A stretch of 64,000 nt of DNA from Escherichia coli (GTDB taxonomy: Bacteria; Pseudomonadota; Gammaproteobacteria; Enterobacterales; Enterobacteriaceae): assembly GCF_044324785.1 (NCBI RefSeq), contig NZ_CP172128.1; one strand, written 5' to 3'. The position numbers were made by a program. Below are positions 63,201-64,000 of this stretch, in pieces; positions within the stretch are counted from its first letter, which is position 1; each line of letters starts with the position of its first letter.

Positions 63201-64000
63201 GCTGACGTGCTTCACGTAAATAAACGACGGATGAGGGACCGGGCTTACCGGTCATAACCAGTGCAGACAGCGGTGTGGCCTGAAGAAGCGGGCGGGGAGG
63301 CAGTGCGGTACTCTGGCTGCTGACAGTGGTTGAGGGTGTCGCCGTTGTTGTCGGACGGGGCGGTGTCACAGGGCGGGTCACCGGTGGCGGAAGCAGACGT
63401 TTTTGCGTATGGGTGATAATGGCAGCACTTTCGCGAATTTGTCCGTCGACGAACACCAGAGCCGGAGGCGTGGTATCCGGAACAGGCGTGGCATTAAATG
63501 CCGTACAGCCGCTGAGTAATGACGGCAGAAGGAGTGTCAGTGATTTCTTTTGCATAGAATATAATCCGGTATATTACGGGTTACGGTATAAGACAGGTGG
63601 CGGTTAACTGGCCTTCAGATGAATATCATTTCATCGGGTTATTGATGATGAACCTTAAAAATCACAGAGGTGATGCATGATAAAGAAGATGTGGCGTTAT
63701 TTACGGCAAATTGATAAGTATGAATTGCTGCAGCAGGTGATTTCAGTACATGAAGTGGAACTGCTCAGGAAAATGATGACAGATTCATTATTAGGGTGCT
63801 CAGTAGGATATGTGTTTTCGAAAATACTGAAGATATCCTTTCTGCGTTTTATTCAGTCTGAGGGGGGATGGGATATTATTACTTACTTTTTGTGGATGCT
63901 GGGAATACTTATTGTCATGGTCGCGCTGTTTATCTGGATGTGCGCCGCTGTATGCTATGAGCTTCGGATGTATAAAATAAAAACAGGAAGGGAGAACGAT

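What the first reader, a model, noticed from the sequence alone, without database searches (positions are those of the whole stretch)
63677..64000. Divergent partial gene upstream of pilL
A plus-strand ORF with a good ribosome-binding site starts 120 bp beyond the pilL start and runs off the window. In R64, pilI, pilJ and pilK precede pilL on the same strand, so a divergent gene here is a difference in organisation.
Basis: inference. Interest (0 to 1): 0.2.

Follow-up and report, generated by a model that had tools for sequence, protein, structure and literature searches.

The report
Orphan membrane gene beside pilL
The open reading frame is a real, already-annotated but uncharacterised 131-residue membrane-protein gene of IncK2-type E. 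coli resistance plasmids; it is half of a variable, often-deleted two-gene cassette that sits where plasmid R64 has pilJ and pilK, so it is ordinary rather than surprising.

Summary
An ATG at 63677, preceded by GAGGTGAT, opens a plus-strand frame 121 bp from the minus-strand pilL start. The frame runs 108 codons to the window end without a stop.

About 90 plasmids match the window end at 99% or more. In those read past position 64000 the frame ends after 131 codons. No minus-strand ORF overlaps it, and no PilJ or PilK homologue is present.

The product is predicted to be a small helical inner-membrane protein with three membrane segments. It belongs to an orphan family found only in E. coli-group I-complex plasmids typed IncK2/Z. 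There are two allelic types with about 35% identity, always divergent from pilL.

Its 3' end abuts or overlaps a convergent gene for a second orphan membrane protein of 143 or 295 residues. The two genes co-occur, co-diverge and are deleted together.

Roughly half of sister plasmids keep only the first 29-30 codons. These include pCT, whose thin pilus works in liquid mating. The gene is therefore accessory cargo in the pilI-pilL slot, not a core pilus component. Its biochemical function is unknown.

Novelty is low, because the gene is already annotated as a hypothetical protein in many RefSeq records.

The parts
62485..63555 (-). pilL (thin-pilus lipoprotein, 356 aa), the first conserved pil gene next to the cassette
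   Evidence: ORF list. RefSeq annotates it as a TcpQ-family protein in near-identical plasmids. The R64 counterpart is annotated pilL.
63556..63656 (.). Conserved part of the pilL-ORF intergenic region, shared at 92-95% identity by all IncK2/Z-typed plasmids with this pilL, including those that lost the gene. It holds a plus-strand TATAAT at 63560..63565.
   Evidence: Matches stop at query position 407, which is window 63656. Alignment A1. The consensus hexamer scan is not evidence of function.
63657..63676 (+). Start of the type-specific cassette DNA, including the Shine-Dalgarno sequence GAGGTGAT (63667..63674)
   Evidence: Identity falls from about 95% to about 50% here. A GGTGAT-type Shine-Dalgarno sequence and the ATG column are kept in both allelic types.
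63677..64000 (+). First 108 codons of a 131-codon gene for a small membrane protein (RefSeq hypothetical protein WP_058100832; alternative 127-aa start model WP_141009761). The stop would lie at window-equivalent 64070..64072.

Best explanation
Shown: this is a genuine protein-coding gene of an IncK2-type I-complex conjugative plasmid. It encodes a 131-residue helical protein. Hydropathy and charge distribution point to a basic cytoplasmic N-terminus of about 35 residues followed by three membrane helices. The first helix is weakly hydrophobic, and the loop between helices 2 and 3 is positively charged. The gene is one half of a roughly 0.9-kb AT-rich cassette (39% GC against about 60% in pilL) lying between pilI and pilL, the slot that holds pilJ and pilK in R64. 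The other half is a convergent minus-strand gene for a polytopic membrane protein. That partner is 143 aa here and unannotated in RefSeq; in the other allelic type it is a 295-aa internal duplication. The two stop codons abut or overlap, with no room for a terminator. Both genes are orphans confined to these plasmids, and they co-occur, co-diverge and are deleted together. Inferred: the two proteins act together in the inner membrane as dispensable plasmid cargo. An exclusion, immunity or addiction-type module is more likely than a pilus-assembly factor. The gene faces against the pilI-to-pilL direction with no terminator, so its transcription and read-through transcription of the pil operon probably interfere with each other. 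The biochemical activity is unknown.
For: Coding status. The 131-aa ORF is intact in about 97 PLSDB plasmids. Homologues at 33-39% identity lie in the same position and orientation in pECOED, NZ_CP075634 and NZ_CP024887. The ATG and Shine-Dalgarno columns are conserved. dN/dS is 0.43-0.50 within type B and 0.2-0.3 between types, where dS is saturated. An ORF this long is rare by chance. Membrane nature. The hydropathy scan and an all-helical AlphaFold2 model with four helices, mean pLDDT 67. Cassette behaviour. Identity breaks sharply at 63656. GC drops across the island. The same number of plasmids, 149, hit with each partner, with matching type splits. The 143-aa protein matches both halves of the 295-aa protein at 1e-13 and 2e-10. 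Dispensability. About 237 plasmids keep only the first 29-30 codons. Other copies are 5'-deleted, frameshifted or truncated. pCT carries only the remnant and has no PilJ or PilK, yet inactivating its pilS lowers liquid mating, so its thin pilus works (PMC4083329). Cargo slots. The pilP-pilQ gap is also variable, holding two membrane ORFs here, a RelE/ParE pair on the opposite strand in pECOED, and nothing in a Shigella plasmid or pCT.
Against: There is no functional evidence of any kind. Pfam, NCBIfam, PADLOC and PHROGs gave no hit above threshold. A profile search of 1.84 billion proteins found no remote homologue, and Foldseek against the PDB found no match. Co-occurrence of the two genes could reflect linkage alone. 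dN/dS near 0.45 indicates only moderate constraint. A role in modulating the pilus without being essential for it is not excluded. Transcription was not measured. The strict promoter scan found nothing in the gap, and the looser scan found only consensus-level matches.
Confidence: 0.7

Rival explanations
1. It is the functional replacement of R64 PilK or PilJ: a lineage-specific inner-membrane accessory factor of the thin-pilus machine that happens to be encoded on the other strand.
For: It occupies exactly the pilJ/pilK slot. R64 PilJ and PilK are also small, AT-rich, N-terminally membrane-anchored proteins. pilI/J/K are known to exist as divergent alleles among IncI1 plasmids (PMC8004404).
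Against: It has no sequence similarity to PilJ or PilK and lies on the opposite strand. It is deleted in about half of sister plasmids whose pilL-pilV genes remain annotated. pCT lacks it and PilK, yet has a thin pilus that promotes liquid mating.
Confidence: 0.15
2. Its main effect is regulatory. Transcription from its promoter runs head-on into pil-operon transcription coming from pilI or traBC, so the gene acts as a transcriptional-interference brake on thin-pilus expression, and the protein is secondary.
For: Orientation is opposite to pilI and pilL. The convergent genes have no spacer or terminator, their stops abutting or overlapping by 8-11 bp. No good minus-strand promoter lies in the 121-bp gap, whereas a plus-strand TATAAT does.
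Against: These are consensus scans only, and the strict scan found nothing in the gap. The protein sequence is under purifying selection, with a strongly conserved block at residues 29-47. That argues the protein itself matters.
Confidence: 0.1
3. It is a decaying, non-functional ORF in an AT-rich junk region.
For: It is often deleted, truncated or frameshifted. The family is an orphan. Constraint is only moderate.
Against: The frame stays open in two types that have diverged past synonymous saturation. Start codon, Shine-Dalgarno sequence, position and orientation are conserved. About 97 type A copies are intact. Chance probability is low.
Confidence: 0.05

Closest known systems
RefSeq hypothetical proteins WP_058100832.1 (131 aa), WP_141009761.1 (127-aa start model) and WP_029391920.1 (97.7% variant) of IncK2/Z-typed E. 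coli plasmids
   Same: Identical or nearly identical sequence at the same locus, divergent from pilL.
   Different: Nothing differs. The window simply cuts the gene after codon 108. No function is attached to these records.
Type B alleles: WP_012605188.1 (pECOED), WP_088137390.1 (NZ_CP024887), protein cluster P0015
   Same: Same position, orientation and convergent partner, and the same predicted helix pattern. The conserved block is LLRxxMTDSLLxCSVGxVF.
   Different: Only 33-39% identity and 141-146 aa. The partner gene is a 295-aa duplicated version.
R64 PilJ and PilK (thin-pilus operon, IncI1)
   Same: Same slot between pilI and pilL. They are also small AT-rich membrane-anchored proteins, and the region is known to vary among IncI1 plasmids.
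   Different: No detectable homology and the opposite strand. This protein has no soluble C-terminal domain, and a sister plasmid keeps a working thin pilus without it.

Membership tests
R64-type PilK (thin-pilus biogenesis protein) | Sequence homology to R64 or ColIb-P9 PilK | tested here: not met
   blastp gave no alignment better than E=17. tblastn of R64 PilK against the window and extensions found nothing at E<=1.
R64-type PilK (thin-pilus biogenesis protein) | Encoded on the pil-operon strand immediately upstream of pilL | tested here: not met
   The gene is on the opposite strand, divergent from pilL. R64 has all these genes on one strand.
R64-type PilK (thin-pilus biogenesis protein) | Required for thin-pilus formation | tested here: inconclusive
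   The evidence is indirect. pCT keeps only a 29-codon remnant yet its pilS-dependent liquid mating works (PMC4083329). No deletion was made in a plasmid that carries the intact gene.
R64-type PilJ | Sequence homology to R64 PilJ | tested here: not met
   blastp E>=13 and no tblastn hit.
Orphan family of WP_058100832 / P0001 (type A) and P0015 (type B) | Full-length sequence match and a locus divergent from pilL | tested here: met
   100% identity over the 108 visible residues. The family profile finds only these two full-length clusters among 1.84 billion proteins.
FtsX-like permease C-terminal domain (Pfam PF02687) | Score at or above the Pfam gathering threshold | tested here: not met
   17.4 bits against a cut-off of 25.5, E=0.005. 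I treat this as similarity between hydrophobic segments.
Known anti-phage defence or toxin-antitoxin components (PADLOC-DB, NCBIfam) | Profile match to any catalogued component | tested here: not met
   No hits for this protein, its type B relative or either partner.
Pore-forming colicin immunity proteins (small proteins with 3-4 membrane helices, encoded convergently to a colicin gene) | Pfam immunity-family match and an adjacent colicin gene | tested here: not met
   No Pfam match. The convergent neighbour is a polytopic membrane protein, not a colicin. The resemblance in size, topology and orientation is recalled from memory.

The most novel reading that the evidence does not exclude
The convergent pair, the 131-aa protein plus the 143/295-aa polytopic protein, could be a new two-component inner-membrane module carried in the thin-pilus operon. 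One possibility is exclusion of I-pilus-specific phages or of competing plasmids. Another is a head-on transcription switch that gates thin-pilus expression. Its two highly diverged allelic types would then be maintained by diversifying or frequency-dependent selection.
Probability: 0.12. Interest if true: 0.5.

Novelty: already known. Interest (0 to 1): 0.15.

Why it matters
IncK2 and related I-complex plasmids spread blaCMY-2 and ESBL genes in poultry and people. Their backbones are usually read through the R64 model. This locus shows that the R64 pilI-J-K-L layout does not carry over to them. They have no pilJ or pilK, and the slot instead holds a variable, frequently lost pair of orphan membrane-protein genes, one of which RefSeq does not annotate in type A plasmids. 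That is a useful annotation correction and a possible typing marker, with type A, type B and remnant states. It does not change understanding of conjugation unless the pair proves to have an exclusion, defence or regulatory role.

Tried and rejected
- **Profile libraries.** Pfam, NCBIfam, PADLOC and PHROGs scans of the protein, its type B relative and both partners gave nothing above threshold. The sub-threshold FtsX hit was rejected.
- **Large protein searches.** The word-indexed search of 5.8 billion proteins and the profile search of 1.84 billion representatives found only the two allelic clusters and fragments. The partner gave the same result.
- **Phage genomes.** tblastn found no match.
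- **Structure.** The AlphaFold2 model is only moderately confident (pLDDT 67, five-sequence alignment). Foldseek against the PDB gave no hit below E=0.8. The afdb50 library was unavailable.
- **PilK elsewhere.** I asked whether PilK had moved to the two extra ORFs between pilP and pilQ. There is no similarity.
- **Promoters and terminators.** The strict scan found no site in the 121-bp gap and no terminator between the convergent genes.
- **Literature.** Yoshida et al. 1999 on the R64 pil genes is not held. The I-complex TraDIS paper and the 2026 IncK2 paper do not mention this gene.
- **Holin and colicin-immunity ideas.** I considered both from memory and dropped them for lack of any supporting match.

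Full report
**Observation.** The minus-strand ORF 62485..63555 is pilL (356 aa). RefSeq annotates it as a TcpQ-family protein in near-identical plasmids. After a 121-bp gap, an ATG at 63677 is preceded by GAGGTGAT (63667..63674). This ATG is the first start codon after an in-frame stop. It opens a plus-strand frame that reaches the window end after 108 codons with no stop. The finding is accurate as described.

**Extension past the window.**
- The last 601 bp of the window occur at 99% identity or more in about 90 PLSDB plasmids and 55 RefSeq E. coli plasmid records, never on a chromosome.
- They differ from NZ_CP019253 at a single base, 63604.
- In that plasmid and in NZ_CP100531 the frame continues for 23 more codons and stops, giving 131 aa.
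- RefSeq already calls it a hypothetical protein: WP_058100832, or WP_141009761 with a start four codons later.
- No minus-strand ORF of 30 aa or more overlaps it.
- tblastn of R64 PilJ and PilK finds nothing in the window or the extensions at E<=1.
This rests on near-identical plasmids, not on the window's own continuation.

**Neighbourhood.** These plasmids are typed IncK2/Z, MOBP, MPF_I.
- Directly after the stop codon, with no spacer, a convergent minus-strand ORF of 143 aa begins its own stop (L002 8674..9105). It is a polytopic membrane protein and is not annotated in type A plasmids.
- Upstream of that lies a pilI homologue (Pfam PF10623, 1.9e-31; 30% identical to R64 PilI).
- Next comes a flotillin gene or its remnant, followed by traC and the NusG-like traB.
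- R64 has pilI, pilJ, pilK and pilL on one strand.
- So pilI is kept, and the pilJ/pilK slot holds two unrelated genes facing each other.

**Is it a gene?** Yes.
- Homologues of 141-146 aa at 33-39% identity lie at the same place and in the same orientation in pECOED, NZ_CP075634, NZ_CP024887 and CP061214. Each is convergent with, and overlaps by 8-11 bp, a 295-aa membrane-protein gene.
- The DNA alignment shows about 95% identity through pilL and the gap up to window 63656. Identity then collapses abruptly to about 50%, yet the ATG column and a GGTGAT-type Shine-Dalgarno sequence are retained.
- dN/dS is 0.43-0.50 among type B copies and 0.2-0.3 between types, where synonymous sites are saturated. 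An unconstrained AT-rich frame would not stay open over that distance.
- Only 1.35% of simulated 1-kb islands contain an ORF this long. The real one contains two.

**What kind of protein?**
- Hydropathy gives two strong membrane segments, at about residues 63-98 and 106-131.
- A weaker segment lies at about residues 37-57. It falls within the most conserved block, LLRxxMTDSLLxCSVGxVF.
- The basic N-terminus and the basic loop RMYKIKTGR fit an N-in, three-helix topology. That topology is my inference.
- AlphaFold2 with the five-sequence alignment gives four helices at mean pLDDT 67.
- Foldseek against the PDB finds nothing meaningful.
- No Pfam, NCBIfam, PADLOC or PHROGs family matches above threshold.
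- The family is an orphan. Searches of 5.8 billion and 1.84 billion proteins return only the two allelic clusters plus fragments, and phage genomes return nothing.
- The convergent partner is equally orphan. The 143-aa form matches both halves of the 295-aa form at 1e-13 and 2e-10.

**Distribution.** About 462 PLSDB plasmids carry this pilL 5' end together with the conserved gap.

| Cassette state | Approximate number of plasmids |
|---|---|
| Type A, the window's type | 100 |
| Full type B | 50 |
| Only the first 29-30 codons of type B remain | 237 |

- The remnant group includes Shigella sonnei plasmids, pO26-CRL-125 and pCT.
- Individual copies are 5'-deleted, frameshifted or 5'-truncated.
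- The partner gene hits 149 plasmids, the same count as the 131-aa protein, with a matching split between types.
- pECOED also carries a partial extra copy of the type A partner.
- The pair therefore behaves as one accessory cassette. It appears ancestral to the lineage and has been lost repeatedly.

**Relation to the pilus.**
- pCT has only the remnant. The region of pCT examined holds no PilJ, no PilK and no partner gene.
- Inactivating pCT pilS nonetheless reduces liquid mating, so its thin pilus is functional (PMC4083329).
- The family is therefore not a core thin-pilus factor. A modulatory role is not excluded.
- The literature already records pilI/J/K as divergent alleles, with small insertions, among IncI1 plasmids (PMC8004404). 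It also records that thin pili are not needed for surface mating (PMC10286972; PMC4288162).

**Second variable slot.** The pilP-pilQ gap varies as well.
- The window has two membrane ORFs there, of 146 and 224 aa.
- pECOED has a RelE/ParE pair on the opposite strand.
- A Shigella plasmid and pCT have nothing there.
- This suggests the pil operon of these plasmids tolerates cargo insertions, including ones on the opposite strand.

**Mechanism.** What is shown: a real, small, membrane-type protein gene in a co-inherited convergent pair that is dispensable for the thin pilus. What is inferred:
- The two proteins probably act together in the inner membrane as conditionally useful cargo of the exclusion, immunity or addiction kind.
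- The gene opposes the pilI-to-pilL direction and no terminator separates the convergent genes. Its transcription and pil read-through transcription therefore probably interfere.
- A plus-strand TATAAT lies at 63560..63565, and no comparable minus-strand promoter lies in the gap. This is a consensus match only.

**Verdict.** The feature is an already-annotated hypothetical gene of a well-sampled plasmid lineage. It has modest annotation value and low surprise.

Noticed in passing
window 57340..58014 (-) and 58146..58586 (-): Two ORFs of 224 and 146 aa, with C-terminal membrane segments, lie between pilP (58635..59087) and pilQ (55735..57243). R64, pCT and a Shigella sonnei plasmid have nothing there. 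pECOED has a RelE/ParE toxin-antitoxin pair on the opposite strand in the same gap. This is a second variable cargo slot inside the pil operon. Neither ORF has a family match.
   Followed up: partly
L002 8674..9105 (-), i.e. just past the window end (window-equivalent 64073..64504): A 143-aa polytopic membrane-protein ORF lies convergent with and abutting the 131-aa gene. It is not annotated in any type A plasmid record listed. It is homologous to both halves of the annotated 295-aa protein of type B plasmids.
   Followed up: yes
L005 (pECOED) 5350..5589 (-): A partial extra copy, 79 codons at 94% nucleotide identity, of the type A 143-aa gene sits next to the complete type B cassette. This hints that the minus-strand family expands by tandem duplication.
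   Followed up: partly
L001 9501..11836 versus L002 9475..9654: A flotillin gene plus an OB-fold gene (which I take to be NfeD-like) lies between traC and pilI in some plasmids. In others it is reduced to a 180-bp flotillin pseudogene fused to the pilI upstream region. This is another variable membrane-associated module in the traC-pilL interval.
   Followed up: no
window 63599..63610 (+): GGCGGTTAACTG resembles the RfaH ops element (GGCGGTAGnnTG, recalled from memory) in the putative leader of the plus-strand gene, and these plasmids encode a NusG-like TraB. Position 63604 is polymorphic (T/G) and the motif is not conserved in type B plasmids, so this is probably chance.
   Followed up: no
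L012 4033..4368 (-); L005 5678..6025 (-); pCT L017 45986..46321 (-): A roughly 111-aa hypothetical protein (WP_001335624) lies between pilI and pilL in remnant-type and some type B plasmids. It is absent from the window's type A arrangement.
   Followed up: no
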